Source of the DNA: a virus
Length of the DNA: 64,000 nt
IMG/VR virus record: IMGVR_UViG_3300014137_000003
Reading direction: 5' to 3' (one strand)
Part shown: positions 1,171 to 62,054 of the stretch, piece after piece
Layout of the letters: the number at the start of each line of letters is the position of its first letter
Position numbering within the stretch: position 1 is the stretch's first letter
The notes under the pieces: generated by a model
What the model was told of the DNA's origin: nothing
The model's input: the letters and a program-made list of their open reading frames with translations, nothing else
Databases searched by the model: none
Position numbers and translations under genes: made by a program

Positions 1171-1944
1171 TTGACAGATTTAGTACAACGCATTAAGGCA
1201 GTCAATGCTGAAAGTGAAAAAGTAAATAAAAGTTCCGTAGAAGCTCAAGCTAAACGTAAGTTGCTTCTACAACAGATTTCCGAAAAGGTATCTGCCTTTG
1301 AGGAAATGTATGGTATTAGTTTTCCGAGTATTAACAACTTAGAGGAGTTTGGTGCTTTTCTAAAGGATTTGCTCGATACACAGGAATCTAAATTGCAAGA
1401 ACAAGTTGAACGAGCTGAAAAGGTTATTGGGTTGATTAACTCAGGTAATATCGAAGAGGCTCAACAACTCTTGGGGTATAAACCTAAAGAAGTTCACCCT
1501 CTAAATAATGAGAAAGTTGCAGAGGATGTAGTAGAAGAAGTTAAGGAGGTTGCGAAAGAGGTACTCGAAGAAGACCTCCCTACTGAAGAAGTTCCAACAA
1601 CCCCTCAAGAAGTTGAAGTCCTCGAAGACCTTGACGGTGGTACTGACGAAGAGGAAGTTCGAGAGGTAGTAAAACCTACTAAACGTCCTCGTAAGCGTTC
1701 GGTTGCTACTACAAACTTCGATATGAACGAAGGTGGGGTATCTTTGGATGACCTTGATAGTGTTGCAGGTGAAGAGGCTAATGACTTTGCCACTGACTCT
1801 ATTGTAGAAGAGGAAGTCACAGAAGTTAAACGTCCTATTCGTCGTCGACGTCCACGAATCGTTAATTCAGACGAAGAAACTAGCACAATTTCTACAAGTA
1901 CTGCACCTATTAAAACTGGTGGTGAATTTAACTTTGGGGATTAA
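1171..1944 (+). CDS. Hypothetical acidic coiled-coil protein
   Basis: ORF is open from 1138. Best start is TTG 1171, 8 nt after GAAGGAG. Very acidic with RRRRPR/KRPRKR basic patches; no domain recognised. Confidence 0.55.
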   Translation: MTDLVQRIKAVNAESEKVNKSSVEAQAKRKLLLQQISEKVSAFEEMYGISFPSINNLEEFGAFLKDLLDTQESKLQEQVERAEKVIGLINSGNIEEAQQLLGYKPKEVHPLNNEKVAEDVVEEVKEVAKEVLEEDLPTEEVPTTPQEVEVLEDLDGGTDEEEVREVVKPTKRPRKRSVATTNFDMNEGGVSLDDLDSVAGEEANDFATDSIVEEEVTEVKRPIRRRRPRIVNSDEETSTISTSTAPIKTGGEFNFGD

Positions 1945-3856: not shown

Positions 3857-3933
3857 TTTGTAAGGGGTAGATTCGAATATTGTATTTTCTGTAGAGTTTA
3901 TATATTATTTCCCGTAAGGAGGGTACTAATTTT

Positions 3934-5466
3934 ATGTCTTATGTTTATGATAAAGTAGTTACTTCATTAGGTGGCAAACCCTTAGTAAGTAGTACCAAAG
4001 AAGGTATAACTGTAAAGGGTTGGTCGCCTAATATGTTTAAGAGGGTAGCCATCTTGACGGATGGTATTGTAGTAGAGTATCATGGTAGTGTCTCTCGTAG
4101 TCGTGTTATACCTTTTAATATAGAAGATGTTAGTAAGGATTTAGCCCAAGGAGCTAAGTATAAGAACCCACTTCGTCCTCTTTTTGAGTTCAAGGCTTTG
4201 TCTTGTTTGGAAGAGTTATTAGTTTCTAGCTCTTTAGTAACTGATAAGATGGTAAATAACTTTATTTCCACTATCTCTGATACGCACAGGCTTAGGCGAG
4301 TAGGGGTACTCCCTATGGAAGTTAAGACTTCCGACATTTCTTCTCTTATTGAAAAGTGTAATGCTCAGGAAGGTGGCAAACATTTACTTCTTTCTGATTT
4401 TATAAATGGTAGCACTAAGATTTCAACTCACAATGAAGACTACTACACAAAATACTATCTACGTCCTACATTGTATGAGTTAGATAAGCCAGGTGGTAGT
4501 TTACGGAAGTATTTTGATAATGTAAAAGCTGAAGTCCTTTCTAAAAGAACTGAAAGCAACAAAGTTTCTCTAGTAAATTCTTACATTGAATACGATAAAA
4601 AGAATATTCGCTTTTGGAATAGTGTTGTTGATTTCTTAAACAATAAAGAAAATCCTACAAAGTATCCTAAGCTTTATACAACTTTGAAGGCTCATTCTGT
4701 TGCAAATAGTGGTTGTTATCTTGAGGGGCTTAAGGACTACTTTAGCTCACGTGGTACTAGCGACCCAATCTATAAGGTCTATAAAATCTTGGGGTATCTA
4801 GACACTAAGGGTTCTAGTAAACCTAACTCTGAGGCTAAAGGTTTCTTAAGAAAGATGGAATCTGTTGCAAATAATTCTTACACTTCTGTCTTAGAAGTAA
4901 TTAAGAAAGACAGCAATGGTTTATTAGGCAATCTTAAGTTACCTAAAGACTCTAGTCGCACTTACATAGTGATGTCAGTACTTGAGATTTTGAATTCCGA
5001 AACTGTCGGTACTGACAACAAAAAGGTCAAATCAGAATTCCGAGACTCTGAAGTAGAAGATGATGCAACTAAAGTTGCTAACGAAGAGTTGAAAGCTAGT
5101 ATCAAGAATTCTTTACCCGAGAGCCTAATGGTAGGGTTGTTTGACTTATGGGAGTCTCTACAAGATAGTTATAAGGAAACAGCAGGTATGCTCTTAACGG
5201 CAAAAGAAAGAGATTTCGATAAGAGGTTCTCTGAAAAGTCTTTGAGTGAGTTAGGTTTGCAACGTCATGCTGAAACCCTATCTCTATTGGGGTATTGTGG
5301 GGGTAGTGATTCCCTAGAAGGCTTGGTTGACTTATCGTTTACCGATGCTTTAAGCAGTCTCTGTCATATGGTAACGAGGGGTAGCTTAGCTGAGTTGCGT
5401 GCTGAGCCTTGGAAGAATCTTTCAGACACTGACAAATGTAGTTATATTATTGGGAGGATTAACTAG
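3934..5466 (+). CDS. Hypothetical protein
   Basis: 510-aa ORF with AAGGAGG RBS. Its stop overlaps the GTG start of the next gene (translational coupling). Confidence 0.75.
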   Translation: MSYVYDKVVTSLGGKPLVSSTKEGITVKGWSPNMFKRVAILTDGIVVEYHGSVSRSRVIPFNIEDVSKDLAQGAKYKNPLRPLFEFKALSCLEELLVSSSLVTDKMVNNFISTISDTHRLRRVGVLPMEVKTSDISSLIEKCNAQEGGKHLLLSDFINGSTKISTHNEDYYTKYYLRPTLYELDKPGGSLRKYFDNVKAEVLSKRTESNKVSLVNSYIEYDKKNIRFWNSVVDFLNNKENPTKYPKLYTTLKAHSVANSGCYLEGLKDYFSSRGTSDPIYKVYKILGYLDTKGSSKPNSEAKGFLRKMESVANNSYTSVLEVIKKDSNGLLGNLKLPKDSSRTYIVMSVLEILNSETVGTDNKKVKSEFRDSEVEDDATKVANEELKASIKNSLPESLMVGLFDLWESLQDSYKETAGMLLTAKERDFDKRFSEKSLSELGLQRHAETLSLLGYCGGSDSLEGLVDLSFTDALSSLCHMVTRGSLAELRAEPWKNLSDTDKCSYIIGRIN

Positions 5467-8400: not shown

Positions 8401-9812
8401 CAAGTAATATGGCTCAGCGTGTTGTATCTGCTCTAGGTTATGAGGGTACTTGGAGGGACTTCGTACAGGATTTGCGTCCAGAGTATATGCTCCATGCAAA
8501 TAATGTATTAGAATCCCTTAGAACTGGTAAACGTTTATCGGATTTGAATGCTAAAACATTCTCGGAGTTTAGGGAGGGGTATCCAGAAGCCTTCACAGTT
8601 TCCGATATTTCTCGATTAGGAGAGGAGACTGGTGAGTCTGATGTATCCTATGAAGATATTGACTTTGCAAGTTTAGGTAAAGCAGTCTATGCTAATTCTG
8701 AAAATGCATCAGCGGATGAAGTAGAGGAAATCTTCAAACAAGATGGCTTATTGGATGACATTGACCTAGGTAATGAGCATGATATTTATGATAATGCTCA
8801 AAGTGTTCAGTTCTCTCAAGAGGATCGCCTTAAGGATTTAACCATTTCGGATATTCAAAACCTTACTCCTAACGAGCAAAAAGCTATCTATGATATGCTT
8901 ATTGAAGGTTTAAAGAACAAGCCCGATATTGAAAATCCTAATGACGAACAACTAGGTTATGGTAAGCTAGGGGTAGCCTATGATAACTATGGTAGAGCTT
9001 ACAAGATTGACACATCTCAAGTAGATAAGACTTCTTCGGTTTATGATGATGTTATTCTAGACGATAATATCTCTAAACTAGACGGAAGTGTACATGAGGT
9101 TTCTTATCAGGCTCTAGTTAAAACTATAACAGAAAAGGCAGTAGCAGTAGCCAAAACTGGTGGTGGTTTTAAGACTATATCTGTTCTTGGTGGTGCTTTA
9201 GTTATCAATGAGGTAATGATTGGTCTCAAAATCCCTGAGAACCTTTTAGGTGGCTTACCAAGTAATGTAGCTGATGACATTAGAAGTGGTAGACTAGCTA
9301 AGTACTTTAATTGGAGGCTATTGCGTAGAAGTGGAGTAGTTACTTTGAAGGTAGATTCCTCTAGGTTTGTCTTTACAGAAATCTCAGAGGGTATGGGGTA
9401 TTCTAAGAACTTTAATGTTCAACAGTTATTTGAAGACTTACCAAGACTTCAAAAGTTTGTAGTAGGAAGCGAAGAATACACTAGAGCACGTGTTAATTCT
9501 ATTGCAAGAAACCAGGAAGAAGACCCCTTCTACCAACCTCGTAGGGCAGAGCAAGCTTACAGACTCTCTCAAGCTTGGTTAGGTAGTAAGAGGTTGGCAT
9601 CTTGGCAACGTGCTAATGATGTTTGGAAACGTAAAGACTTGGGTACTTTCCGTAAAGTCTTAAGTACGGTAGGTAATACAACTCTTGCAGGTGCTAGTGG
9701 GGCTACGGAAGCTACTGGTTGGGCTGGACGCAAACTCTTTAGAAGCGTAGGTCGTGCAGCTAGTGAGTTTAAGTCTATGCTTGATGACTCCAAGAACTTA
9801 GGAAAGAAATAG
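5466..9812 (+). CDS. Giant (1448 aa) P-loop ATPase, FtsK/HerA-like core
   Basis: GTG start after GGGAGG. SHFLVAGSRAGKGVDSMAKLAAALKSGKPVFYLDNKPD parallels the FtsK Walker A region (hhhAGxxGxGK...hhhDpK). Walker B is IVAFFDEF. Flanking regions of ~530 aa and ~700 aa are unassigned. Confidence 0.55.
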   Translation: MAYIKEVLSGIKQLNSPNEVKSIVVGKDFVYLRKHKDDDPQPSLFIPFDPSLVGSDDPLFFMDERTYGTAEELFVYEGYSHSPIIESYMHKATEERARLSTLIIGSKEEIDTCASGVDAGASIEDLGYSYARSIVDFSHIYPLQPEHYSWDAVEGLEYFRGVEELVANTYGTAEGEDDSRGTEEVSDEDLDGVGGTKELDSEEVEESTPTADDYTIQDAVEYYAPHIDTVVSDIVSNYTKLFKAGYQLKRPVGVLGEQGDSGKLMTLSGSSQTFTKPNPVIRALYQLTVAEYNLTILPYRSVDHIASIIVNGVTPDGATISPDTRLYFPYKMLEFAYGRKTPKATEGGKTNYPKHSEKLNWDAYASEVDENLRQVTRGIVAKILGNFEDVDYFDAKVESSITESLTRFKDVFTTCILVGEFPLIKGLPSLLKVRTLLPFELHNNHNVATEAMRVGISSLGTDPFEGIPIHDGVYHMYTHEYNHSLANSKPMYAYHAAKSLKESGHEVNYKNMIIGLGLDDSILQNGSGNVNLVPNMSHFLVAGSRAGKGVDSMAKLAAALKSGKPVFYLDNKPDIGAVLLDIEPNAFVVNGQLVTSSVDGGTNIGGHFMGSSALANVNPQGVPSYLYNSSDALFRGRSYSQLGAVFYARALQLIMLITYFRTLDDISAKIDLGDKSNGIVAFFDEFNVTQDSGLGPLMQKIYFNYARTDYAEAERNAQETGKKNSVRKPSQNAYWGTAFTESLKNTAMMLADGTKAGYMNGEAAASDIFIVGQDLPDVIESAEDFDDFFPTHRGKNTERAQFASGKGSGKTQPLVPLVSPGGADIFVGYNLKHSNYLNQSRGFAKDKLDKDARLFAYIPTYNRGTKKQIESGNEEFARNVPTYYKPLLLLADADMDKYFVKNAMSYAIESGIDAESIILDNAQEDEQGNPIKFEKRQFSDNKGHKYTTEYRIHPAVGFKDYLNYIGMDDSSISSSLKAASNMAQRVVSALGYEGTWRDFVQDLRPEYMLHANNVLESLRTGKRLSDLNAKTFSEFREGYPEAFTVSDISRLGEETGESDVSYEDIDFASLGKAVYANSENASADEVEEIFKQDGLLDDIDLGNEHDIYDNAQSVQFSQEDRLKDLTISDIQNLTPNEQKAIYDMLIEGLKNKPDIENPNDEQLGYGKLGVAYDNYGRAYKIDTSQVDKTSSVYDDVILDDNISKLDGSVHEVSYQALVKTITEKAVAVAKTGGGFKTISVLGGALVINEVMIGLKIPENLLGGLPSNVADDIRSGRLAKYFNWRLLRRSGVVTLKVDSSRFVFTEISEGMGYSKNFNVQQLFEDLPRLQKFVVGSEEYTRARVNSIARNQEEDPFYQPRRAEQAYRLSQAWLGSKRLASWQRANDVWKRKDLGTFRKVLSTVGNTTLAGASGATEATGWAGRKLFRSVGRAASEFKSMLDDSKNLGKK

Positions 9813-9888: not shown

Positions 9889-10131
9889 ATGGCTACGAGT
9901 AACCCATATCGAGTATTAGGTGTTAGTCCTAGTACGTCTTACGAAGAGGCTAAGCGTATCTATCGTAGGAAGGTTAAGAACCTCCACCCCGATTTAGGGG
10001 GCGACGCTAAGTTGATGATGGAAGTCAAGGAGGCTTGGGATTATCTCAATGCTAATCGAGATACTATGCTTGGTCAAACTAGCTCAGTCGGGGTAACCCA
10101 CAAATCACTTTTTGAAATTTTAGATAAATAG
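9889..10131 (+). CDS. J-domain-only (DnaJ-like) co-chaperone
   Basis: NPYRVLGVSPSTSYEEAKRIYRRKVKNLHPDLGGD with an intact HPD tripeptide. 80 aa, with no Zn-finger or C-terminal DnaJ domains. Confidence 0.85.
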   Translation: MATSNPYRVLGVSPSTSYEEAKRIYRRKVKNLHPDLGGDAKLMMEVKEAWDYLNANRDTMLGQTSSVGVTHKSLFEILDK

Positions 10132-12524: not shown

Positions 12525-12959
12525 ATGCTATTAGTTAAGAATAGGAAGGCTTATCATGATTACTCTGTACTCCGTACCTTGGAGTGTGGGGTTGTTTTGG
12601 TAGGTAGTGAAGTTAAATCGCTAAAGGCTCATCACGGAGTCCTCAAAGGTTCTTGGGGGTATATTTCTAACGAAGAAGTGTTCTTAAAGGGGGTACACAT
12701 TCCGAAATGGGGTACGTCTGTTTGGAACCATGAAGAAGAAAGAGACCGTAAATTACTCCTACATAAAAAGGAAATTAAGGGTTTAGCGAAAGACTTGTCT
12801 CTTGGCGATGGGTTAACTCTTGTACCTTTAGAGCTTAAAGTTGTAAAAGGTCGAATAAAGTGCACTCTTGGCTTGTGTAAAGGTAAGAAAAACTATGATA
12901 AGCGTCAAGCTCTGAAAGAAAGAGACATCAAACGTAGTCTAGAAAGGTTAGTTAGGTAG
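12525..12959 (+). CDS. smpB: SsrA-binding protein SmpB (trans-translation factor)
   Basis: NRKAYHDY, GSEVKSLK, RDRKLLLHKKEI, LVPLEL and KGKKNYDKRQALKERD are collinear with bacterial SmpB. AGGAG RBS. Confidence 0.9.
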   Translation: MLLVKNRKAYHDYSVLRTLECGVVLVGSEVKSLKAHHGVLKGSWGYISNEEVFLKGVHIPKWGTSVWNHEEERDRKLLLHKKEIKGLAKDLSLGDGLTLVPLELKVVKGRIKCTLGLCKGKKNYDKRQALKERDIKRSLERLVR

Positions 12960-13941: not shown

Positions 13942-13985
13942 ATCATTTGTATGCAGCTGACTAGGTAACTGCCTAGTCCTTATAT

Positions 13986-14057
13986 GCCCTCATAGTATAA
14001 CGGAGAGTACACAGGTTTCCTAAACCTATGATGGGGGTTCGATTCCCTCTGAGGGCA
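13986..14057 (+). tRNA. tRNA-Arg (anticodon CCU, reads AGG)
   Basis: Manual cloverleaf, 72 nt, no encoded CCA. Acceptor GCCCTCA/TGAGGGC; D-arm GTAT..GTAC with GG loop; anticodon stem AGGT/ACCT with loop TT-CCT-AA; T-arm GGGGG-TTCGATT-CCCTC; discriminator A. Confidence 0.8.
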
Positions 14058-14121
14058 TTCTACTAGTTAAGGCTAGTGGAAGACTGACTTTCTGCTGAAG
14101 TCGATGGTAACTCCTTAGTAT

Positions 14122-14147
14122 CCAGTGCAGAGGTGCACTGGTTTTTT
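14122..14147 (+). terminator. Rho-independent terminator after tRNA
   Basis: 8-bp stem CCAGTGCA/TGCACTGG, GAGG loop, T6 run. Confidence 0.8.
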
Positions 14148-14260
14148 AGTTTAATTATACAGAAATTATTTTATATCTTTAGGTATTAACTATTTAGGAG
14201 GTAGGTTTTATACTTAGTGTAATCTCTTGTAGTTTAGTATTAGATTGTTATTATTTCTTT

Positions 14261-14413
14261 TTAGGAATTACTTTAGTATCTTAGTATAATCTATCTTATT
14301 CTTGTTTACTTTTTAGTAGTTCTTTCCTATTAGATTTCTTTTCTTTCTATATTAAATCCTTTTGTATTCTCCTTATATATTACTAGCCTATTTAGGAATT
14401 GCTTTATTATCTT
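14261..14413. repeat. Two copies of a 22-bp direct repeat TTAGGAATT(A/G)CTTTA(G/T)TATCTT
   Basis: Copies at 14261-14282 and 14392-14413, 20/22 identical, in non-coding DNA. Confidence 0.7.
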
Positions 14414-14655
14414 TGTGGTAATTGGGTGTACTTTTGGTAGGATTTGTGGTATTATGGTTAGTGATTTAGATGTGGTATTTTATGTGGTAATCTCGTCCGT
14501 CTTGGGTGGGGGTATCTATTTTAAATCCGTTTTAGGGCTTGTTTGGGGCGTTTTAGCGAATAAAAATATGGGGGTAGGGGGTGTATGTCCTTGCTTGCGT
14601 ATTGTGGTTTTGTGGCTCGAAAATAGCGTGTATTTGTGGGTTTATTGTGGGTTAT
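14410..14655 (+). repeat. GT-skewed, C-poor block with at least 8 (T/A)TGTGG(T/G) boxes
   Basis: TTGTGGTA 14413, TTGTGGTA 14444, ATGTGGTA 14470, ATGTGGTA 14482, TTGTGGTT 14602, TTGTGGCT 14610, TTGTGGGT 14634, TTGTGGGT 14645 (approximate starts). Confidence 0.65.
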
Positions 14656-14719
14656 TATTGCTTATTAATCTACTATATCTATTTGTACTTAGTTGAATAT
14701 AGGAATTAGGAGTCAAAAT

Positions 14720-15337
14720 ATGGCTAACTTTTTTAGAACCTTAGATACTTCTATTAAAGATTGCTCTAGTAGTGGAGATGTTGCATCTTTGGCTATCCTA
14801 GAACGATTGAAGATGTATTTAAGTACTGGTAACTTTAGCTCTTATAGTAGGGCAAAGGAACTTATTTCTGTTAATGGCTTATCGTGGAAGGAAGCTAGTT
14901 ATGTACTAAAAATAAAGCCCGACACGGTGAAACGTGCAAGATATGCTTTGTCGGAAGAGGTTTGGAATATTGTAGGAAAAGACTTTTTCGACCGTCTTAA
15001 GGAAGGGGACTTAGCTTATTGTGATTCTATCGTTGAGTCTCTCCACGTGGAGGAGATTGTTTCCCCTATCCCTTTAGATGTTTCTAAGCTTATTAGGTCT
15101 TTGGCTAGTGAGGAAGACCTTAATAGTATAGGTAGCGTAACCGAGTTGTCTGCCTATTCGAAGGAGTTGGACTTTCTAGTTGGGATTAGCGAACCTATGG
15201 TTAGGGCAAAGGTATCTAACCTAGATATTGGTAGGCTCTTAGCATTACTAGGCATTTTGGATGGAAGCCTTGGTAATCCTCATATTAGGGTGGCGATTAA
15301 CGAACATATTCTAGGGAAAGCAGGAGATTTATTATGA
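14720..15337 (+). CDS. Putative transcription regulator with sigma-70 region-4-like HTH
   Basis: ATG 14720 after AGGAG (the track ORF starts 27 nt earlier). GLSWKEASYVLKIKPDTVKRARYAL resembles region 4.2 (LSxxEIAxxLgIsxgTVKsRlxRA). Confidence 0.4.
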   Translation: MANFFRTLDTSIKDCSSSGDVASLAILERLKMYLSTGNFSSYSRAKELISVNGLSWKEASYVLKIKPDTVKRARYALSEEVWNIVGKDFFDRLKEGDLAYCDSIVESLHVEEIVSPIPLDVSKLIRSLASEEDLNSIGSVTELSAYSKELDFLVGISEPMVRAKVSNLDIGRLLALLGILDGSLGNPHIRVAINEHILGKAGDLL

Positions 15338-16548
15338 TTCATATTAGTGAACTATATAAAAAGGATTATTTTGAGACTGTAAGTGAATATCGTTTCGCTT
15401 TATCATTTGCTATGGAGTGTGCTAGACGTGGCGATATCCTCTCGGTAGATGGGGTACGCAGTCAGGCAGACTTGAATTCTCGTGTGCATGCAGGCTACAA
15501 AAATTATCTAATGGATAATAATTTAGTTGTAGGATTTAGTAGCAAAGAAGAAGACATCTACCCTTACGAAGAACAGAATTACTCTTTCCTTAGTAAAGAT
15601 AATCTTTTTGAAGACAACGGTGAGTATCTCTATTGGGATATGGACTGGGGCTTGGAAGTGTTAGGTAGACTCTTCTATAAGCACGCAGGGGTAGGTGATA
15701 TTCCTTACTTGTTGGAGTTCCTAGTAGCTCGTCATCTCTACGATGTCCTAACTGGGAAAGAAACTCGCAAACTCTATATTAAGTTAACTATGCAACTATC
15801 TTCTACTTTCTCTAGCTATTTGGACTTGGTTTCTCTTTATAATTCTTGTCCTAACCTAGCAGAGTATGTAGAGATTGTACTGCATGAGCGTTCTTCTGTA
15901 GACCTTAAACTTTCCTTATTTAAGTATGATTCTAATAACTTAGGATTTAATAAGGAGTATACGGTGGAGGAGAAAATGAACTTCTTACAACTAAATAGGT
16001 TTACCGAAGGTATGGTACTTATTCTCTTTGATAGAAAGGGTATTAACACTTCTAATGACTTGGGAAGTATCGAGATGGCTCATTTAGTTCGTCTTGATGA
16101 AGTTGTAGACGGTAAGCTTTACCTAACCCAGTTAAGGGGTACTCGAACCTATGAGGAGACTGCTAAAGACTTCCTCATGATTCCCGAAAAGAACCGTGCA
16201 CTTTATTATGACTTATTAGATAAGTCTGATTCTGTCCATGGTTCTATGGTAGTAGACTTACGAGAGTGTGGGGTAGGAAGTCGATTTTACCGTGAGAAAC
16301 ACTTGTTAGATTCTATCTCAACTACGGATATGGTTCGTAAGTTAGTTTCTAACAATGGGAAAATCTTTGAACAAGAGATGACTGAAGCTGAAGCTATCTT
16401 CTATACCCTTATGCAAAACGACGCTCCTATAGACGCTGATTTATATAGAGATTATTATTTTGGTGGCGGAGAAGCTATTTGGGATTCCCTAGACCATGAT
16501 GGTTTTAACTCTCCTTATGACTTTATTAAGGATGAGCTTAATTTCTAG
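15334..16548 (+). CDS. Hypothetical protein
   Basis: 404-aa ORF with a 4-nt ATGA overlap with the upstream gene. Confidence 0.75.
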   Translation: MIHISELYKKDYFETVSEYRFALSFAMECARRGDILSVDGVRSQADLNSRVHAGYKNYLMDNNLVVGFSSKEEDIYPYEEQNYSFLSKDNLFEDNGEYLYWDMDWGLEVLGRLFYKHAGVGDIPYLLEFLVARHLYDVLTGKETRKLYIKLTMQLSSTFSSYLDLVSLYNSCPNLAEYVEIVLHERSSVDLKLSLFKYDSNNLGFNKEYTVEEKMNFLQLNRFTEGMVLILFDRKGINTSNDLGSIEMAHLVRLDEVVDGKLYLTQLRGTRTYEETAKDFLMIPEKNRALYYDLLDKSDSVHGSMVVDLRECGVGSRFYREKHLLDSISTTDMVRKLVSNNGKIFEQEMTEAEAIFYTLMQNDAPIDADLYRDYYFGGGEAIWDSLDHDGFNSPYDFIKDELNF

Positions 16549-16559
16549 TTTAAGTTTAG

Positions 16560-16716
16560 ATTTCCGAATACTTTATTAGGTTTTCCGAAAATATTTTTAG
16601 TTTTCTGAAATATAGGTTATGTTTTCCGAAAGTTATTTTATGTTTTCCGAAAGTTGGTTTATACTTTCTGATTTTTAGTTCCAGTAGGCTGAAAGTTTGT
16701 ATTCAGTCTTCCGAAA
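16560..16716 (+). repeat. Phased array of 7 TTTTCCGAAA boxes (iteron/operator-like)
   Basis: Boxes start at 16560, 16581, 16601, 16622, 16643, 16664 and 16707 (spacing 21, 20, 21, 21, 21, 43). The core TTC-C-GAA is a near-palindrome. Confidence 0.8.
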
Positions 16717-16750
16717 CTAATTAGTTAGAATTATGAAAGAATGGTGAGTT

Positions 16751-18889
16751 ATGGCAGATTTATTAAAAGACCTAGAAAACTTTACTTCGAATTTGGAAGA
16801 GGTAAAACCAAAGAAGGAAGTAGTTGGTACAGGTTATGTAAAGAAAAAGGACACTGCTAGTGAGCGGTTCCTAGAACGTGTCACGGAAAAGGGGTACGAC
16901 TTAACTGAGCTTGAAGGAGCCCTTAAGACTTGGGGCAACCAGTTGGTTCTATCTTGTGCAGGAAGTGGTAAAACTACTTTTACAGTAATGAAAATTTTGT
17001 ATGGAACTCGTACTGGTAAGTTAACTCAAAAGGTAGAAGTTAATGGAAATACTGTACGAACTATGGCACGGATTTGGGTTTCTACCTTTTTGAATAGTGG
17101 TGCTAGGGAGTTGGAGTACGAAGTAGCCAAGTGGAATAAGAAAATGGGGTATGTTGATACTTCTAAATCAATAAAGTTTTCCACTATCCATGCAGAGTTT
17201 AAGTCTGTATTGAATGCTTGTGGTATTAGCACTAGCTTTATCGATGCTAAGGCTAACACTACTGCTCTACGCAACATCGTAAAACGATTTGGAGTAAGAG
17301 CTAATGGTAAGTTCCTTAATTCTGAACAGTTGTCTGATTTAGAGGGTGCATTGACTTATACTCGTAATAAACTTGATGGTAAACGTTATACCCACCAAGT
17401 TTATACTGACCTAGGTCTTACCTCAATTGAGATTGATGCTATTCTAAATGATTGGTATAAGGCACGTAAGGCAGCTGGCAAAATGGACTTTGAGGACTTG
17501 CAAGATATCCTCTATAACAAGTTGTTTGTAGAGGAAGACCAGAACATTATTGATTGTGTTTCAGACCGTTATGACTTCTTGTTTATTGACGAATTCCAAG
17601 ATACTTCCCAAAAGCAGTATGCTATCTTAAAAGTTTATATGCAGTATGCTAAGCAAACGGTAGTTGTAGGTGATGACGACCAAACTATCTACTCTTGGAG
17701 GGGTAGTGACCATAAGATTATTACTGAGACATTTATTAATGACTTTAGTCCTAAAATCTCTAAGCTCTCTACTAACTATCGATGCCCAGCAAATATTGTA
17801 AACGCTATTGTTCCTAGTATTGAACGCAATACTGAACGTTTAGAGAAGTCTATTAAGGCAAGCAAAGAAGGTGGGGAGGTTCGTCTTGGGGTATTCCCAT
17901 CTTACAATGCTATGGTTAAGAAATTGAATGAATTGGTTTATCAAGATATTTCAGACCGTATGAATGTAGCTATTATCTGTCGTGAGAATAGTGATGGGTT
18001 GTTGCCAGCTATGATGCTAGATAGGGATGGAAGGTTCTCTTTTAGTATTAGTGGGGAGGGTATGTCCCTAAACTCTTACATGGTTCAGCAAGCTAAGAAT
18101 GTTGTACGTTTGGTTAGCGAGAAAGCTACAAATGGTGTTGCATCTGCTCTTAAACAACTAACTTACTCTACTTGGGAAGTTGATTCTCTTATGTCAGCAC
18201 TTAAGAATAGTGGGGAAAGTATTTGGAATGTTCCTATGGACGAAGTTTCTTATTCTTGTCCTAGTCTATCAGGTATTCTCTCTGAGTGGAGAAATGTTTA
18301 CAGGGGTGTAACAGAAGGTAAGATGTCTGAAATGGGTTTGTTGGAATATCTTCTTTCTTACTATCATAACTTTGTTTATGAGAAGGAAAACACTTACAAC
18401 ATGAGAATGCGTTCTATCCTATCTTCTTTTGTAGTGCTTGTTAGGTCTGATGGTTTTGAATCTGCGTCTGAGTTCCTTTATGAGCTGAACGAAATGAATT
18501 TACGTTTACAAAGCCGAGTGAAGCTGAATAACGTAGATATTCGGATTGTTACTGTACACGAATTTAAAGGTAAGGAAGTAGATTCGGGGTATCTTTGGAA
18601 TGACTCTGTTGATGTCTTTCCTCATAAAAAGGCTGAAACTCAAGAAGAGCTTGAAGAAGAAAGGCGTAACCACTATATTGGTTGTACACGTCCTAAGAAA
18701 CGTTTGACCCTTATGACTATCCAAGGTAAGGAGGGTATGTTTATCTCGGAGATGGACTTATCTAACGCAATCCGTGTAGATAGTGTTTCTGGTATTAAAG
18801 GTTCATTAAAAGGTAAAGAAGATAGCGAAGAAGCTAGGAATAGACGTAGGCTTTTGGGAGAGTCAGCGGGTGTAGGTTTTGAAGAATAA
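16751..18889 (+). CDS. UvrD/Rep/PcrA-family SF1 DNA helicase
   Basis: Motif I CAGSGKTT, II FIDEFQDTS, III VVGDDDQTIYSWRGS, IV NYRCP, V VHEFKGKEVD, VI ERRNHYIGCTRPKKRL. Confidence 0.9.
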   Translation: MADLLKDLENFTSNLEEVKPKKEVVGTGYVKKKDTASERFLERVTEKGYDLTELEGALKTWGNQLVLSCAGSGKTTFTVMKILYGTRTGKLTQKVEVNGNTVRTMARIWVSTFLNSGARELEYEVAKWNKKMGYVDTSKSIKFSTIHAEFKSVLNACGISTSFIDAKANTTALRNIVKRFGVRANGKFLNSEQLSDLEGALTYTRNKLDGKRYTHQVYTDLGLTSIEIDAILNDWYKARKAAGKMDFEDLQDILYNKLFVEEDQNIIDCVSDRYDFLFIDEFQDTSQKQYAILKVYMQYAKQTVVVGDDDQTIYSWRGSDHKIITETFINDFSPKISKLSTNYRCPANIVNAIVPSIERNTERLEKSIKASKEGGEVRLGVFPSYNAMVKKLNELVYQDISDRMNVAIICRENSDGLLPAMMLDRDGRFSFSISGEGMSLNSYMVQQAKNVVRLVSEKATNGVASALKQLTYSTWEVDSLMSALKNSGESIWNVPMDEVSYSCPSLSGILSEWRNVYRGVTEGKMSEMGLLEYLLSYYHNFVYEKENTYNMRMRSILSSFVVLVRSDGFESASEFLYELNEMNLRLQSRVKLNNVDIRIVTVHEFKGKEVDSGYLWNDSVDVFPHKKAETQEELEEERRNHYIGCTRPKKRLTLMTIQGKEGMFISEMDLSNAIRVDSVSGIKGSLKGKEDSEEARNRRRLLGESAGVGFEE

Positions 18890-18893
18890 TTAG

Positions 18894-18957
18894 TTTTCCG
18901 AAAGTATTTTTTAGGTTTCCGATTTCGAATTTTAGAAGTCCGAAGCCTTTTCGACTA
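18894..18957 (+). repeat. Second phased array of TTCCGA-type boxes
   Basis: TTTTCCGAAA 18894, GTTTCCGATT 18915, AAGTCCGAAG 18936 (21-bp phasing), plus TTTCGAAT 18923 and TTTTCGAC 18948. Confidence 0.65.
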
Positions 18958-19023
18958 TAAGTAGGATTGTTTTTATGTTTATTTTATGTTAAGATGCTAG
19001 TATTGAAAGTATGAGGTTTAGTT

Positions 19024-19908
19024 ATGTACTTTAAAGGAAGTCGTGTAACTTTAGAATCTATTAGTTCTCAGTTTAGGGGGTATTCCTTGGACATACAGGA
19101 CGAGGTTCGTTCTATGGTTATGGATAACTTAGATTTGTCTAAGTGGATAGACGTTTGTAAGGATAACCCTTACCGTCTATATCAGATTAGGTTAGGAAGT
19201 AAGGAGGGATTGGACCCTCGGTTCTTCACTATCCTAGATGGTTCTGTAATTTATAGGATTCGTAGCTTGGCAGCTACTGGTTTTAATGTGGGAGAGTTGC
19301 TCTCTTATGTAGGTGTGGGCTTTACTAAGGAGCAGTGGTTTTATATTATCTCTTGGGCAGAGCGTGGCTTGTTAGACTTTAGGTTAGCCCTTGTAAGGAC
19401 TCCTTTCTCTATGTGGGGTTTCATTGATAAGGGTCTTAGGAATAACTTGCCTATGTGGTTGTTCACTAGTGGTAAGAAATACAGTGACACCTTTATGCAT
19501 AGTGTTCTTACTTTGATGTCTAATGGGCAGTCTGCCGAGACATTCTTAAATTATCCGTGGAATGATAAAACATTAAAATTATTGGCAGAATTCTCTTACC
19601 GTAGATGGTTTAATAATATAGTAGGCTTGGTAGATTATTTTATCCCTTACGATTTTTTAGTCTCTGTAGGGGAGTTAGCTAAAGAAGGTTTAATTGATAA
19701 AGATTTATTTAAGACTGGTTATGATGGAGATACTGGAAGCTGTTATTATCTATATCAGTCATATCATTTAGAAGCTATCTTGCGTTGTGTCATGCAGGGG
19801 TATGATTATAGCAAGTTAAAGGATTATAACCTTTCAGGTTCAGAGGTAGACACTATCTTGAAAGAGATAGAGTTAAACTCTAAGCGTTCTTTCCGAGGTA
19901 GATTGTAA
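19024..19908 (+). CDS. Hypothetical protein
   Basis: 294-aa ORF with a GAGG RBS, downstream of a TGtTAAGAT -10-like element. Confidence 0.7.
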   Translation: MYFKGSRVTLESISSQFRGYSLDIQDEVRSMVMDNLDLSKWIDVCKDNPYRLYQIRLGSKEGLDPRFFTILDGSVIYRIRSLAATGFNVGELLSYVGVGFTKEQWFYIISWAERGLLDFRLALVRTPFSMWGFIDKGLRNNLPMWLFTSGKKYSDTFMHSVLTLMSNGQSAETFLNYPWNDKTLKLLAEFSYRRWFNNIVGLVDYFIPYDFLVSVGELAKEGLIDKDLFKTGYDGDTGSCYYLYQSYHLEAILRCVMQGYDYSKLKDYNLSGSEVDTILKEIELNSKRSFRGRL

Positions 19909-21721: not shown

Positions 21722-21847
21722 CCCTTTGTTAGATTTATTTATATCTGCTCTAGTAATCTCCGAATATAGGAATTTTAAGTTAGGTAAATATGTTTTTAGA
21801 GTAGTTACTACTAAAACTTAAGTTCCTTTTACTTAAAGTTCAGGGTT

Positions 21848-22138: not shown

Positions 22139-22147
22139 TGGTAAAAT
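22139..22147 (+). promoter_or_regulatory. Extended -10 element TGgTAAAAT
   Basis: Lies directly after the terminator and upstream of the actin-like cassette. Confidence 0.5.
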
Positions 22148-22235
22148 AGAAGTTAAAGAGTTTATATTTTGATTTCTGAGAGTTAGAGTATAGACTTCTA
22201 AAAGTAGTAGTATCTACATAATGGAGGAATTAATT

Positions 22236-23393
22236 ATGCGTGAAGTAAATGCAACCCTTATTGTCGACTTAGGTAATAGCGAGACAAGGGTTATGGTTCA
22301 GTCAGGTCTTGGTAGGAACGGTTTGGTACGCCAGCGTATGTCTTTGGTAAGCAATAAATATGCGTCCTTACGAGAGGGGTACGAAGTTCCAGAAACTTAC
22401 ACAGAAGAGAACTCATCTATTCTAAGAACTAAGGATGGAGAGTTGTTTGCAAATGGATTGCTTGTAGAACGTGAGTTTTCGGTAGCACCTTTACGTCCAA
22501 CAAACTTGGAGAAAAAGCACGAAAGTAAGGTAACTATGATTACAATTCAACGTGCTTTCTTAGAGGGGTATAAATTGCTCTCTCAAATGTACCGAACATC
22601 TATGTCAAACCTTGACGTTACTTGGAAGGTAGTTTATTTGCTACCACCAAATGATATTTCTGAGGGTGCTAAGGTACTGTACGAAAAGATTGTAGGTCTT
22701 AAAACTCTTGAGTTTGTATTGCCTGAGTTTTCTGTTGATTTAAAAATCGAGGGTGCTAAAGTTTACCCAGAAGGGTTTGCAGCCTATATTGGAACTCTTA
22801 TGCGTAAAGGTAAAACTATCAATGAAGAGTTTAAAGGTTTGCTTGAATCAACAACCCTTATTGTTGACATCGGTGCAGGAACTACGGACTTCTTCGTGGT
22901 AGAGGGGATGGACACCATTGACTCTACTAAATCAACAATTCAAATTGGGGGTAACAACGTAACAGCATCTCTACGTCAACGAATGGCGAGTGCAGGTCTT
23001 AGTCTAACTGATAAGGTTATTGAGAAAGGTGTTCGCACTGGATATGTGAAAGATGGTGCTAAAACAATCAAAGTTGTTAAGGCTTTGGTGGCAGCAAAAC
23101 AGGACACTGCAAGCGTTCTTTTGGGTTCCATTATCTCTTATTTGGAAAGTGCTAACTATAACATTCGTACCATTGAAAATCTCCTTGTAGTTGGAGGTGG
23201 TAGTATCCCTAGTGATATCGAGGGTGTTAAGTCTCTGTCTGAGTATGTAGTAGAACGCTTAAAAGATTTTGCTCCTAACATTCAGTTGGTAAACTTGCCT
23301 AAAGAATATAAAGGTGAAGATACTACTGGTGGGGAGTTGAATCCTCGATTGTTAAACATTCTAGGTGCAGGGGTACTAGCAGAAATGGGGTAA
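22236..23393 (+). CDS. Actin-like ATPase (ParM/Alp family)
   Basis: ATG 22236 after GGAGG. Phosphate-1 LIVDLGNSETR, phosphate-2 LIVDIGAGTTDF, adenosine motif LLVVGGGS. Confidence 0.75.
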   Translation: MREVNATLIVDLGNSETRVMVQSGLGRNGLVRQRMSLVSNKYASLREGYEVPETYTEENSSILRTKDGELFANGLLVEREFSVAPLRPTNLEKKHESKVTMITIQRAFLEGYKLLSQMYRTSMSNLDVTWKVVYLLPPNDISEGAKVLYEKIVGLKTLEFVLPEFSVDLKIEGAKVYPEGFAAYIGTLMRKGKTINEEFKGLLESTTLIVDIGAGTTDFFVVEGMDTIDSTKSTIQIGGNNVTASLRQRMASAGLSLTDKVIEKGVRTGYVKDGAKTIKVVKALVAAKQDTASVLLGSIISYLESANYNIRTIENLLVVGGGSIPSDIEGVKSLSEYVVERLKDFAPNIQLVNLPKEYKGEDTTGGELNPRLLNILGAGVLAEMG

Positions 23394-31548: not shown

Positions 31549-31979
31549 GAGTAATTGAGCTCCGTATCTCTGGTGACAGGGGTATGTCCTTACAAGCGTT
31601 AAACACTAGGAAGTCCTTAAAGCCCTACTGCTAAAACAGAGTTGGAAACGACAAATGGTAAAGTAGCGAAAGCGGAAAGAAGAGTAGGGATACCAATAAG
31701 CTGAAATAAAAGCTATAACTATTCTTGGTTATGGTGCTAAGTTGGTGTAAATAGGGTATTTAGTTACGAACCTCTAAGGCAAATTAGCTATGAGGCACGT
31801 TCATCGACTAGGTTCTTGGAAGGAACCGACCGGAAGGTCTTAATGTAGCCTAGCAAGTGCAGGCGAAAAATGCTTGGGCTTTGTTTATAAGCAAAGTTTA
31901 ACACATAGTCACGTCTTACATCGTAAGGGTGTAAGCTACTGAAATAGTAGGGTTAGGGGTAACGTCCTAGCAAAGATCG
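31549..31979 (+). ncRNA. ORF-less group I intron (boundaries inferred, +/- a few nt)
   Basis: R-like core GTTCATCGACTAGG (31799-31812) and S-like CATAGTC (31904-31910) can form P7 GACTA/TAGTC. GACC-GGAA-GGTC tetraloop hairpin. The preceding exon ends in T and the intron ends in G. Splicing restores SPPYF|LENYGE. Confidence 0.65.
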
Positions 31980-32333
31980 TTAGAAAATTATGGCGAACAT
32001 GATGCAAATAGAGCAAATCAATCACATGTCAAATTCTCAGGTTTAGAATCTTGGCTAGAGGGGTATGTTCGAGGGACTTGTAAAAACATCTACAAAGCTC
32101 TTAAGGGTGGTGCATTCAGTGCAGTAAATATCGCTGACTTCAACATGAAGGGTAGGGGTATGGTTTCCTTTGTAGATGAGTGGAAACGAATTGCGGAAGA
32201 AGAAGGGCTTGAATACTACACTAATATTTATCTAGGTGTAACAGCCCGAGCAGGTTCTTTGGAACAAGAACTTGGGGTAGCTAAGAAGGAAATCATTATG
32301 GTTTTTCGTTCGACTAAACCTGTGTGGGGTTAG
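31980..32333 (+). CDS. DNA methyltransferase, exon 2
   Basis: Frame is open from 31971. LENYGEHDANRANQSHVKFSGLESWLEGYV.. is the expected continuation after SPPYF (..LExY...qS...y..W..). The track ORF starts only at the internal Met 32145. Confidence 0.65.
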   Translation, partial: LENYGEHDANRANQSHVKFSGLESWLEGYVRGTCKNIYKALKGGAFSAVNIADFNMKGRGMVSFVDEWKRIAEEEGLEYYTNIYLGVTARAGSLEQELGVAKKEIIMVFRSTKPVWG

Positions 32334-32361
32334 TAGTAAGCTAATTAGAAATGGATAGTGT

Positions 32362-33601: not shown

Positions 33602-33617
33602 TTAGGTGGTAGTAGTA

Positions 33618-34358: not shown

Positions 34359-34362
34359 TATT

Positions 34363-35037: not shown

Positions 35038-35038
35038 T

Positions 35039-61937: not shown

Positions 61938-61960
61938 GAGGTCTTATGACCTCTTTTATT
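61938..61960 (+). terminator. Rho-independent terminator
   Basis: GAGGTC-TTAT-GACCTC stem-loop and a T-rich run. Confidence 0.8.
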
Positions 61961-62054
61961 TTTGTTTTCCGAATCTATCATCTCTTCTCTTAAATTGTTA
62001 TACTCTTTGTGTATTTCAAAAATACAGTTTTATATCTATATTTTGAGGTGACTT

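What the first reader, a model, noticed from the sequence alone, without database searches (positions are those of the whole stretch)
16560..18957. Arrays of near-palindromic TTTTCCGAAA boxes phased every 21 bp on both flanks of the UvrD-like helicase gene
Seen: upstream boxes start at 16560, 16581, 16601, 16622, 16643 and 16664 (spacing 21/20/21/21/21) and at 16707. Downstream boxes start at 18894, 18915 and 18936 (21/21). Single copies sit before the adhesin gene (61965-61974) and, degenerate, at 21757-21766. The core TTC-C-GAA has dyad symmetry; the best copy, TTTTC-C-GAAAA, is an 11-bp palindrome.

Established: a spacing of two helical turns puts all sites on one DNA face, as in iteron origins and cooperative repressor or activator arrays.

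Inference: this may be an iteron-type origin bracketing its helicase, or operator arrays of an element-encoded dimeric regulator that nucleates a filament or loop between the two flanks.
Basis: partly seen in the sequence, partly recalled or inferred. Interest (0 to 1): 0.68.

Follow-up and report, generated by a model that had tools for sequence, protein, structure and literature searches.

The report
Phased protein-binding repeat arrays flanking helicase gene
The repeated TTTTCCGAAA boxes are real, and related giant mobile elements keep them every two turns of the DNA helix in front of a helicase gene, so they most likely form a docking track for one of the element's own DNA-binding proteins that controls its replication and segregation genes; this is a familiar kind of device in an almost unstudied element.

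Summary
The whole 202-bp leader of the PcrA/UvrD-like helicase gene (16549-16750) consists of nine 21-bp units. Three more units follow the gene, two precede the ParM-like gene, and one precedes the adhesin gene. Two intragenic pairs lie 43-44 bp apart.

All boxes are on the + strand. The real unit is directional and bipartite, TTAG-N6-YGAAA, not a palindrome.

Thirteen syntenic relatives (88% down to 35% helicase identity; several are contigs of about 135-225 kb) have repeated boxes in the same leader. Most show a clear 21-22-bp period. The 3' half of the box changes between lineages, which argues for an element-encoded binder rather than a host factor.

The best candidate binder is a conserved 205-aa protein with a GerE/LuxR-type HTH, encoded two genes upstream. 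Its recognition helix reads VKRxR only in the lineages that have TTCYGAA boxes.

I found no origin signature at the array: no AT-rich unwinding element, no DnaA-box cluster, no GC-skew or gene-strand switch, and no recognisable initiator.

My best reading is a cooperative operator or segregation-type scaffold. An iteron-type replication-control array is the main rival. It is a new variant of a known kind and of moderate interest.

The parts
16555..16740 (+). Main array: nine 21-bp units, each TTAG-N6-YGAAA. Six are strong (core starts 16560, 16581, 16601, 16622, 16643, 16707) and three are degenerate (16664, 16685, 16729). It fills the whole leader of the helicase gene.
   Evidence: Present in register in L012-L015, L142, L018 and L019.
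18889..18946 (+). Downstream array: three units (core starts 18894, 18915, 18936) between the helicase stop codon and the 294-aa gene.
   Evidence: Equivalent boxes occur in L012 (12146, 12167, 12189), L013 (12190) and L015 (12370, 12413).
22167..22204 (+). Two units (TTTTGATTTCTGAGAG and TATAGACTTCTAAAAG, 22 bp apart). They lie between an extended -10-like element (TGGTAAAAT, 22139-22147) and the SD of the ParM-like gene.
   Evidence: A box occupies the same position in L012, L013 and L015, and more weakly in L014.
61960..61975 (+). Single strong box (PWM 21.6 bits). It sits directly after a terminator-like hairpin and about 20 bp upstream of an extended -10-like TGTTATACT, before the AgI/II-type adhesin gene.
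1271..1331 (+). Intragenic pair of boxes, with TTCCGA at 1278 and 1322 (44 bp apart), inside ORF 1138-1944.
   Evidence: The two copies are in different reading frames, so this is not a peptide repeat. The pair is identical in L020 and L021.
4988..5047 (+). Intragenic pair of boxes, with TTCCGA at 4995 and 5038 (43 bp apart), inside ORF 3934-5466. A further box lies at 4329.
14720..15337 (+). Candidate binder: a 205-aa protein with a GerE/LuxR-type (sigma region 4-like) HTH at about residues 45-82 and a conserved C-terminal domain of unknown function.
   Evidence: It is syntenic with the array in all 13 relatives.
15334..16548 (+). A 404-aa conserved protein of unknown function. Its gene overlaps the end of the HTH gene, and its stop codon abuts the array.
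   Evidence: The AF2 model has pLDDT 90.4, with no significant PDB or BFVD match.
16751..18889 (+). PcrA/UvrD/Rep-type SF1 helicase gene flanked by the two arrays.
   Evidence: Pfam UvrD-helicase 9.6e-31 and UvrD_C 1.1e-19. phrog_1967. NCBIfam pcrA, uvrD and rep match far below their cut-offs.
22221..23393 (+). Actin-like (ParM-like) ATPase gene preceded by two boxes.
   Evidence: PF21522 3.7e-11. phrog_691 'partition protein' 4.4e-19. NCBIfam ParM 1.1e-8, far below cut-off.

Best explanation
The boxes are directional, bipartite binding sites (TTAG-N6-YGAAA). They repeat every 21 bp, two turns of B-DNA, so bound protein lines up on one face of the helix.

An element-encoded sequence-specific protein polymerises cooperatively over them. 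The most likely candidate is the 205-aa GerE/LuxR-type HTH protein encoded two genes upstream, possibly acting with the 404-aa protein next to it.

The long array covers the entire leader of the PcrA/UvrD-like helicase gene. Shorter versions sit in front of the 294-aa gene, the ParM-like gene and the adhesin gene. Pairs 43-44 bp apart sit inside two upstream genes.

The system therefore works like the repeat arrays of plasmid global regulators and centromere-binding proteins, such as omega of pSM19035 or ParR on parC. One protein reads a graded number of sites at several transcription units of the replication and segregation module and sets their expression by occlusion or roadblock. The large array may also serve as the handle for segregation.

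Shown: the sites, their phasing, their orientation, their recurrence in relatives, and their lineage-specific divergence.
Inferred: the identity of the binder, cooperativity, and the regulatory or segregation output.
For: 1. The leaders of most relatives are periodic. Lag 21, 22 or 42-43 is the top or near-top self-correlation in W, L012-L015, L017, L018, L019, L142, L143, L145 and L146. About half of these exceed the shuffle 95th percentile.
2. Strict TAG-N6-GAA is enriched 30-60-fold in the leaders of eight elements. All positions are congruent mod 21.
3. The 3' half-site is lineage-specific: TTCYGAAA, AACGGTAAA, TTTCCAAC, AWWTATAA, and in L145 a completely different box, ATGATGTCATTAT. The binder therefore co-evolves with the element.
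4. The HTH gene, the 404-aa gene, the array and the helicase gene are syntenic in all 13 relatives.
5. The HTH recognition helix is [TS]VKRxR in all six lineages with TTCYGAA boxes and differs wherever the boxes differ.
6. Boxes occur at several transcription units in promoter-proximal positions. Before the ParM-like gene they lie between an extended -10-like element and the SD, and a box recurs there in L012, L013 and L015, more weakly in L014. Before the adhesin gene the box abuts the -35 position of TGTTATACT. In several lineages a box lies directly 5' of the SD of the helicase gene (L014, L015, L019; a degenerate copy in L013) or of the gene that follows the helicase (L013, L015, L018).
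7. The intragenic pairs 43-44 bp apart are non-random (P = 1.5e-4) and in different reading frames. The same 43-bp 'strong-weak-strong' spacing recurs inside the arrays.
8. Precedent: pSM19035 omega binds arrays of 7-10 repeats at three promoters, and these arrays act as both operators and parS (PMC9499535).
Against: - No binding has been shown.
- The window's own HTH protein does not reach any Pfam threshold. Only 20 of 70 family members hit GerE at E < 0.1, and the structural model is mediocre (pLDDT 62.6).
- The match between recognition helix and box rests on very few independent changes and is confounded by phylogeny.
- No sigma-70-like promoter scoring at least 9 of 12 lies inside the helicase leader. 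What would be repressed there is therefore unclear, unless read-through from the upstream genes is blocked.
- Nine to eleven units are more than simple repression needs.
- Intragenic pairs are not explained by promoter control.
- The main array is 5.5 kb from the ParM-like gene, and no small ParR-like gene is present.
Confidence: 0.42

Rival explanations
1. Iteron-type replication origin or replication-control (inc/titration) array. An element-encoded initiator binds the phased direct repeats next to the helicase gene. It either opens DNA there or is titrated and handcuffed by the arrays on both flanks and by the scattered extra sites.
For: - Head-to-tail asymmetric repeats with a period of about 21 bp are the classical iteron format. 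V. cholerae ori2 has six 12-mers spaced by 10-11 bp, plus distant titration iterons (PMC6090056).
- The arrays sit in a replication-gene cluster: PcrA/UvrD-like helicase, RecJ-like exonuclease, HU, and a J-domain protein at 9889-10131. DnaK and DnaJ assist iteron initiators.
- A second cluster lies on the other side of the helicase gene, and scattered single or paired sites exist.
- Two conserved proteins of unknown function are encoded immediately upstream.
Against: - There is no AT-rich unwinding element beside the array. The only 40-bp window with at least 85% AT between 13.9 and 19.1 kb is at about 14120.
- There is no DnaA-box cluster.
- GC skew is positive on both sides, and every gene is on the + strand from -26 kb to +47 kb.
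- No Rep_3, RepA_N, DnaA-like or winged-helix initiator was detected.
- The 780-bp non-coding stretch at 13942-14719 looks more origin-like.
- Boxes before the adhesin and ParM-like genes fit regulation better.
Confidence: 0.27
2. The box is a promoter element (a -10 or start-site motif) for host sigma-A or an element-specific transcription factor, and the array is a run of tandem promoters. TTTAGA of one unit would act as a -35 for the TAGwwT of the next unit, 16-17 bp downstream.
For: - All boxes are co-oriented with the genes.
- The last unit lies directly 5' of the SD in many lineages.
- TAGAAT, TATACT and TATGTT resemble -10 hexamers, and a 21-bp period gives a 17-bp spacer (own reading).
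- The 205-aa protein has a sigma region 4-like HTH.
Against: - The element's evident promoters are host-type with an extended -10 (TGnTAnAAT) after terminators.
- The invariant G of TAG is atypical for a -10 hexamer.
- The hexamer frame shifts by one base between units.
- The consensus scan finds no promoter in the leader.
- Phasing is retained even where units have degenerated, which promoters do not require.
- The box occurs in only about 4 of the ~35 intergenic gaps of 60 bp or more in the window.
- The 205-aa protein lacks sigma region 2.
Confidence: 0.1
3. The boxes are sites for a host global regulator. The core resembles the Firmicute CodY box AATTTTCWGAAAATT, so host CodY would couple expression of the element's genes to nutrient status.
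For: TTTTCTGAAA equals the CodY core. Individual boxes match 11-12 of 15 consensus positions. This comparison is mine; the consensus is from memory and was not tested with a tool.
Against: - The centre is C in 24 of 37 boxes, and G at -3 is invariant. Neither fits the CodY consensus.
- The 3' half changes completely among related elements while the phasing stays. A conserved host factor would not drive that.
- The boxes are strictly oriented, whereas the CodY box is a palindrome.
Confidence: 0.05
4. RNA-level element: the repeats act in the intercistronic mRNA, as multi-site binding for an RNA-binding protein or as a structure controlling helicase translation.
For: There is no terminator after the 404-aa gene, so the leader is probably transcribed. 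The last unit abuts the SD.
Against: - The leader folds no better than shuffles (z = -1.6).
- There is no Rfam hit.
- A period of 21.0 and pairs at 43-44 match multiples of the B-DNA helical repeat.
- One box lies in a terminator-promoter gap (61960-61975).
Confidence: 0.04

Closest known systems
Omega (RHH ParB) heptad arrays of Streptococcus pyogenes plasmid pSM19035 / Inc18
   Same: One element-encoded protein reads arrays of 7-10 non-palindromic repeats at several transcription units for copy control and partition. The arrays act as both operators and centromeres. Array length and contiguity matter (PMC9499535). The host group is the same (streptococci).
   Different: Omega units are contiguous 7-bp heptads in mixed orientation. 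Here the units are bipartite, about 15 bp, spaced at 21 bp, and all in one orientation. No RHH protein or Walker-type ParA was found next to the array. The candidate binder is an HTH protein.
Iteron arrays of theta replicons (V. cholerae ori2/RctB; from memory, P1 incC/incA and F incB/incC flanking the rep gene)
   Same: Head-to-tail asymmetric repeats with a period of about 21-23 bp. A second cluster lies on the other side of a replication gene. Extra dispersed sites exist. A J-domain chaperone is encoded nearby (PMC6090056).
   Different: The flanked gene is an SF1 helicase, not the initiator. There is no DUE, no DnaA box, no skew switch and no recognisable Rep protein.
Type II partition centromeres (from memory: R1 parC 10 x 11 bp; pSK41 parC 4 x 20 bp) and TubR/tubC arrays
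   Same: Phased direct repeats are coated cooperatively by a small DNA-binding adaptor. An actin-like ATPase gene lies in the same module and has its own boxes.
   Different: The main array is 5.5 kb upstream of the ParM-like gene. The gene after the ParM-like gene encodes a 567-aa coiled-coil protein, not a ParR. The actin-like protein is only distantly ParM-like.
CodY box (AATTTTCWGAAAATT) and the left arm of difSL (ATCTTTCCGAAAAA...)
   Same: They share the TTTC-N-GAAA core (the CodY consensus is from memory; difSL is from PMC2965235).
   Different: The boxes are directional, carry an invariant 5' TTAG, repeat at 21 bp, and diverge with the element lineage. This is a resemblance of the core only.

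Membership tests
Iteron-type plasmid or phage origin | Tandem direct repeats of about 17-22 bp in helical phase | tested here: met
   Nine units at 21.0 bp in the window and up to eleven in L012. Most relatives show the same period.
Iteron-type plasmid or phage origin | An adjacent gene for a recognisable Rep initiator (Rep_3, RepA_N, winged-helix pair, DnaA-like) | tested here: not met
   The 205-aa and 404-aa proteins give no Pfam, PHROG or NCBIfam hit. Profile searches against PDB are non-significant. The confident 404-aa model has no PDB or BFVD fold match.
Iteron-type plasmid or phage origin | An adjacent AT-rich unwinding element and/or DnaA boxes | tested here: not met
   No 40-bp window with at least 85% AT lies next to either array. 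DnaA boxes with up to one mismatch are scattered and none is near the arrays.
Iteron-type plasmid or phage origin | Replication starts there (skew or strand switch, marker frequency, autonomous replication) | tested here: inconclusive
   There is no GC-skew inflection or gene-strand switch within -26 to +47 kb. This argues against a bidirectional origin but not against a unidirectional one. Origin activity cannot be tested with these tools.
Type II (ParMRC) partition locus | The centromere array lies immediately upstream of parM and contains its promoter | tested here: not met
   The main array precedes the helicase gene, 5.5 kb from the ParM-like gene. Only two units lie before the ParM-like gene.
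Type II (ParMRC) partition locus | A small ParR adaptor gene directly downstream of parM | tested here: not met
   The downstream gene encodes a 567-aa coiled-coil protein with SMC/Rad50-like coiled-coil hits only.
Type II (ParMRC) partition locus | A ParM-family actin-like ATPase | tested here: inconclusive
   PF21522 3.7e-11, phrog_691 4.4e-19, and NCBIfam ParM 34.8 bits against a cut-off of 417.
Omega/Inc18-type global regulator arrays | Arrays of at least four repeats at several promoters of replication and partition genes | tested here: met
   Nine, three, two and one units lie before four transcription units. The unit format differs: 21-bp spaced units, not contiguous heptads.
Omega/Inc18-type global regulator arrays | An RHH repressor/ParB with a Walker-type ParA partner | tested here: not met
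   No RHH or ParA-type ATPase was found among the proteins scanned around the arrays. A ParB-like gene lies 29 kb away at 45745-46539.
CodY regulon site | A 15-bp palindrome AATTTTCWGAAAATT that stays the same regardless of which element carries it | tested here: not met
   The centre is C in 24 of 37 boxes, G at -3 is invariant, and there is one orientation only. The 3' half diverges between related elements.
LuxR/GerE-type HTH regulators (candidate binder) | A GerE-type four-helix HTH domain above the family threshold | tested here: inconclusive
   The window protein has no hit. 20 of 70 family members hit PF00196 (best 4e-5). The family profile hits NarL, SsrB and RhlR HTH regions at E 0.03-0.1. 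Foldseek gives only weak FixJ, EL222 and VpsT matches.
Inocle giant extrachromosomal elements of oral Streptococcus | The InoC marker gene (replication-relaxation domain PF13814), VirB4/VirD4, and a circular replichore structure | not tested
   None of these lies in the window or in the fetched loci. The resemblance is by gene content only: an AgI/II-type adhesin, plasmid-type genes, and mostly unknown proteins (PMC12340149).

The most novel reading that the evidence does not exclude
The array is the assembly site of a previously undescribed replication-initiation module of giant Streptococcus-associated elements. A GerE-type HTH protein and a novel-fold 404-aa partner coat nine to eleven phased TTAG-N6-GAAA units and load the element's own PcrA/UvrD-like helicase for unidirectional replication. 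The flanking and dispersed boxes act as copy-control (handcuffing or titration) sites.
Probability: 0.15. Interest if true: 0.75.

Novelty: new variant of a known kind. Interest (0 to 1): 0.42.

Why it matters
The window belongs to a large family of about 180-260-kb elements. The helicase search returned more than 6,000 proteins at E <= 1e-10, and the closest ones lie on contigs of that size. An AgI/II-type adhesin gene hints at a Streptococcus host, but the host was not tested. Almost none of the element's proteins has a recognisable function.

The phased array, the conserved HTH and 404-aa gene pair beside it, and the small set of further boxes make up the first readable control circuit of this family. 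They give concrete reagents (one DNA fragment, two proteins) for finding how such elements regulate, replicate or segregate.

If the array proves to be the origin or the centromere, these elements could be engineered and maintained in culture. If it is an operator set, it defines the core regulon. The device itself, phased direct repeats coated by a cognate protein, is well known, so a specialist would find it useful rather than surprising.

Tried and rejected
1. DNA similarity of 15300-19100 to the INPHARED phage and PLSDB plasmid collections gave no match. The helicase protein has only 23-31% identical hits in known phages.

2. Exact scans for TTTTCCGAAA-N11-TTTTCCGAAA found 9 other viral contigs and more than 120 taxonomically scattered genome contigs.
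   - None shares a protein with the window.
   - I treat them as unrelated tandem repeats. L010, whose array lies beside an HTH_36 gene, is only a curiosity.
   - The genome scan did not identify the host.

3. The 205-aa protein as a sigma factor or a terminase small subunit: rejected. Its HTH is central, it has no sigma region 2, and the neighbouring 404-aa protein has no terminase fold.

4. Structure-based annotation of both neighbouring proteins gave no significant match.

5. RNA structure or RNA family in the leader: z = -1.6 and no Rfam hit.

6. Sigma-70 promoter and terminator scan of 14-23 kb: counts were no higher than in shuffles and nothing lay in the leader.

7. Search for tmRNA near the SmpB gene: ARAGORN and Rfam found only tRNA-Arg.

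8. The metagenome scan with a helicase profile added only five true relatives (L142-L146). The other 75 loci are generic UvrD genes.

9. difSL and CodY resemblances involve the core only.

10. A search for the pAD1 iteron consensus TAGTARRR, recalled from memory, found no paper, so I did not use it.
Full report
**Observation**

- Exact TTTTCCGAAA occurs four times in the 64-kb window. All four lie in the two intergenic gaps, 336 bp in total, that flank ORF 16751-18889.
- Tandem Repeats Finder calls a period-21 array at 16561-16662.
- Self-correlation of the 202-bp leader peaks at lags 21 and 42, above the 95th percentile of shuffles.
- A PWM built from 37 boxes of this element and four relatives gives 15 hits of at least 12 bits on the + strand and one on the - strand. 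Shuffled sequence gives 1.1.

**Anatomy**

Read in register, the upstream array is longer than reported. Nine units fill the leader from the stop codon of the preceding gene to the helicase Shine-Dalgarno sequence. Six units are strong and three are degenerate.

Three units follow the helicase gene.

The proposed degenerate copy at 21757 is not supported. A two-unit site lies instead at 22167-22204. It sits between a terminator plus an extended -10-like TGGTAAAAT and the ribosome-binding site of the ParM-like gene.

The single box at 61965 is strong. It lies between a terminator-like hairpin and an extended -10-like TGTTATACT before an AgI/II-type adhesin gene.

Two intragenic pairs, 1278/1322 and 4995/5038, lie 43-44 bp apart.
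- Random placement gives P = 1.5e-4.
- The members of each pair are in different reading frames, so these are DNA-level features.
- The same 43-bp 'strong-weak-strong' spacing recurs inside the arrays.

The motif is not a palindrome.
- Its consensus is TTTAG-w-TTTC-Y-GAAA.
- G at -3 is present in 34 of 37 boxes and has no symmetric counterpart.
- The centre is always C or T.
- Every copy has the orientation of the genes.

**Context**

All plausible genes in the window, and in the 10 kb upstream of it, are on the + strand. GC content is 37%.

The flanked gene is a PcrA/UvrD/Rep-type SF1 helicase.

Conserved neighbours, in order:
- a J-domain protein
- SmpB
- an HNH protein
- an HU homologue
- tRNA-Arg
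- a 780-bp non-coding stretch
- a 205-aa HTH protein
- a 404-aa protein
- the array
- the helicase
- a 294-aa protein
- a RecJ-like DHH exonuclease
- a 65-aa predicted membrane protein
- a ParM-like actin-like ATPase
- a 567-aa coiled-coil protein

Further on lie FHA, PP2C and Ser/Thr-kinase genes, an ArdC-like gene, a ParB-like gene, another helicase gene, a 5'-3' exonuclease gene and the adhesin gene. Most proteins match nothing.

No capsid or terminase gene was seen in the window. An IMG/VR contig of 180,840 bp with a 98% identical helicase is nevertheless filed as viral.

The gene content resembles the giant plasmid-like 'Inocle' elements of oral Streptococcus (PMC12340149). I could not test membership.

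**Comparative evidence**

The helicase search returned more than 6,000 proteins at E <= 1e-10. Its closest members lie on contigs of 150-260 kb. I fetched 13 syntenic relatives with 88% to 35% helicase identity.

All 13 keep the order HTH gene, 404-aa gene, short non-coding leader (about 65-330 bp), helicase gene.

- In L012-L015 and L142 the TTCYGAAA boxes are present and in phase. L012 has eleven units.
- In the 47-49% relatives L018 and L019 the TTCCGAAA core is mostly gone. TAGAA boxes still recur at 21-bp steps, with nine units in L018. The strict bipartite pattern TAG-N6-GAA is enriched 30-60-fold, and all positions are congruent mod 21.
- Other lineages carry different boxes:
  - L016: TTTAGAAC...
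  - L143: TTAG(A/T)TTTCCAAC
  - L146: (T/A)TAGAWWTATAA at 22 bp
  - L145 (48% GC): ATGATGTCATTAT, with lags of 43 and 21
- L144 has a short leader with only two boxes, and L016 shows weaker periodicity.

Most of the family therefore keeps an array with a two-turn period. The TTAG half is widespread, though L145 lacks it, and the other half drifts with lineage.

This pattern indicates a DNA-level site for a protein that co-evolves with the element. It argues against a host factor such as CodY, whose box the core resembles.

**Candidate binder**

The 205-aa protein belongs to a family of about 150 clusters at 50% identity, all about 200 aa long.
- 20 of 70 members hit Pfam GerE, with a best E-value of 4e-5.
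- The family profile aligns to the HTH of NarL, SsrB and RhlR at residues 45-82, with E-values of 0.03-0.1.
- Its recognition helix is [TS]VKRxR in all six lineages with TTCYGAA boxes and differs wherever the boxes differ. This is suggestive, but it is confounded by phylogeny.

The 404-aa protein gives a confident model (pLDDT 90.4) with no significant PDB or BFVD match.

**Tests of the origin reading**

- No AT-rich window lies beside either array, and there is no DnaA-box cluster.
- GC skew stays at +0.13 to +0.31 on both sides.
- There is no gene-strand switch within -26 to +47 kb.
- No recognisable initiator is encoded nearby.

The non-coding stretch at 13942-14719 has the only strongly AT-rich window in this region. 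It also has repeated GTGGTA boxes and a conserved GGGGTAGGGG element, so it looks more origin-like.

These results weaken the origin reading but do not exclude it. They leave a unidirectional origin or an inc-type control array possible. The unit format matches iterons such as V. cholerae ori2 (PMC6090056).

**Other readings**

- Tandem promoters. The co-orientation and -10-like hexamers favour this. Against it: the element's clear promoters are host-type with an extended -10, the scan finds none in the leader, and promoters have no need to keep phase.
- An RNA element. The leader folds no better than shuffles (z = -1.6) and there is no Rfam hit. Periods of 21 and 43-44 fit B-DNA.

**Conclusion**

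The arrays are genuine, widespread among relatives, directional and phased on one face of the helix. They are most likely coated by the element's own HTH protein.

Boxes sit at four transcription units in promoter-proximal positions, and unit numbers are graded (9, 3, 2, 1). I therefore favour a cooperative operator or segregation-type scaffold (0.42), in the manner of omega on pSM19035 (PMC9499535). An iteron-type replication or copy-control array comes second (0.27).

The kind of device is known. This version is new in three respects: its bipartite unit, its placement across the whole leader of a PcrA/UvrD-like helicase gene, and its uncharacterised protein partners.

Noticed in passing
window 13942-14719: A ~780-bp non-coding stretch upstream of the HTH gene, conserved in relatives. 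It holds tRNA-Arg (CCT) at 13985-14058, the only strongly AT-rich 40-bp window of the region (~14120), four GTGGTA boxes (14415, 14446, 14472, 14484; the same 31/26/12 spacing in L012) and a conserved G-rich element GGGGTAGGGGG (~14571). ORF 14415-14696 is probably spurious. This stretch could be an origin, a regulatory region or an unknown RNA.
   Followed up: partly
window 31555-32361: An 807-bp stretch without an ORF. By eye it looks more G+C-rich than its surroundings. It has no Rfam family at gathering threshold. It could be an unknown structured RNA or a decayed gene.
   Followed up: partly
window 12525-12959 and 9889-10131: The element encodes a full-length SmpB (Pfam 4.3e-47) and a J-domain-only protein. 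ARAGORN and Rfam found no tmRNA gene in the window.
   Followed up: partly
window 15334-16548: A 404-aa protein conserved across the family (34 clusters). Its AF2 model is confident (pLDDT 90.4), but it has no significant match in PDB or BFVD, so it may have a new fold.
   Followed up: yes
window 5466-9812: A 1448-aa protein conserved in all relatives (1357-1590 aa) with no Pfam or PHROG hit.
   Followed up: no
window 33606-37006: A contiguous signalling cassette on the element: an FHA-domain protein, a PP2C phosphatase and a Ser/Thr protein kinase.
   Followed up: no
window 62055-64000 and the element as a whole: An adhesin with an AgI/II (Adhesin P1) N-terminal domain, plus ArdC-like (40512), ParB-like (45745) and ParM-like genes, and no capsid or terminase gene in 64 kb. 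The element looks more like a giant plasmid (compare Inocles of oral Streptococcus, PMC12340149) than a phage, although IMG/VR lists a near-identical 180.8-kb contig as viral.
   Followed up: partly
L145:6189-6416: In a 48%-GC relative (35% helicase identity) the helicase leader carries four copies of a completely different box, ATGATGTCATTAT, again with self-correlation lags of 43 and 21 bp.
   Followed up: partly
L146:2482-2627 and 3873-3998: A 28%-GC relative has two arrays of (T/A)TAGAWWTATAA at about 22 bp. One lies after the 402-aa gene and one before the helicase gene. Two extra ~206-aa genes lie between them.
   Followed up: no
L010:2493-2600: An unrelated 29%-GC viral contig has five 21-bp units, GTGTATTTTTCCGAAAGTTAT, sharing 15 bases with the window's unit. 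They lie just 3' of a gene with two HTH_36 domains and near a YonO-like RdRP-family polymerase gene. No protein is shared with the window.
   Followed up: partly
window 16581-16591 and similar boxes: The box core resembles the left arm of Lactococcus/Streptococcus difSL (ATCTTTCCGAAAAA..., PMC2965235) and the CodY box. I judged both to be resemblances of the core only.
   Followed up: partly
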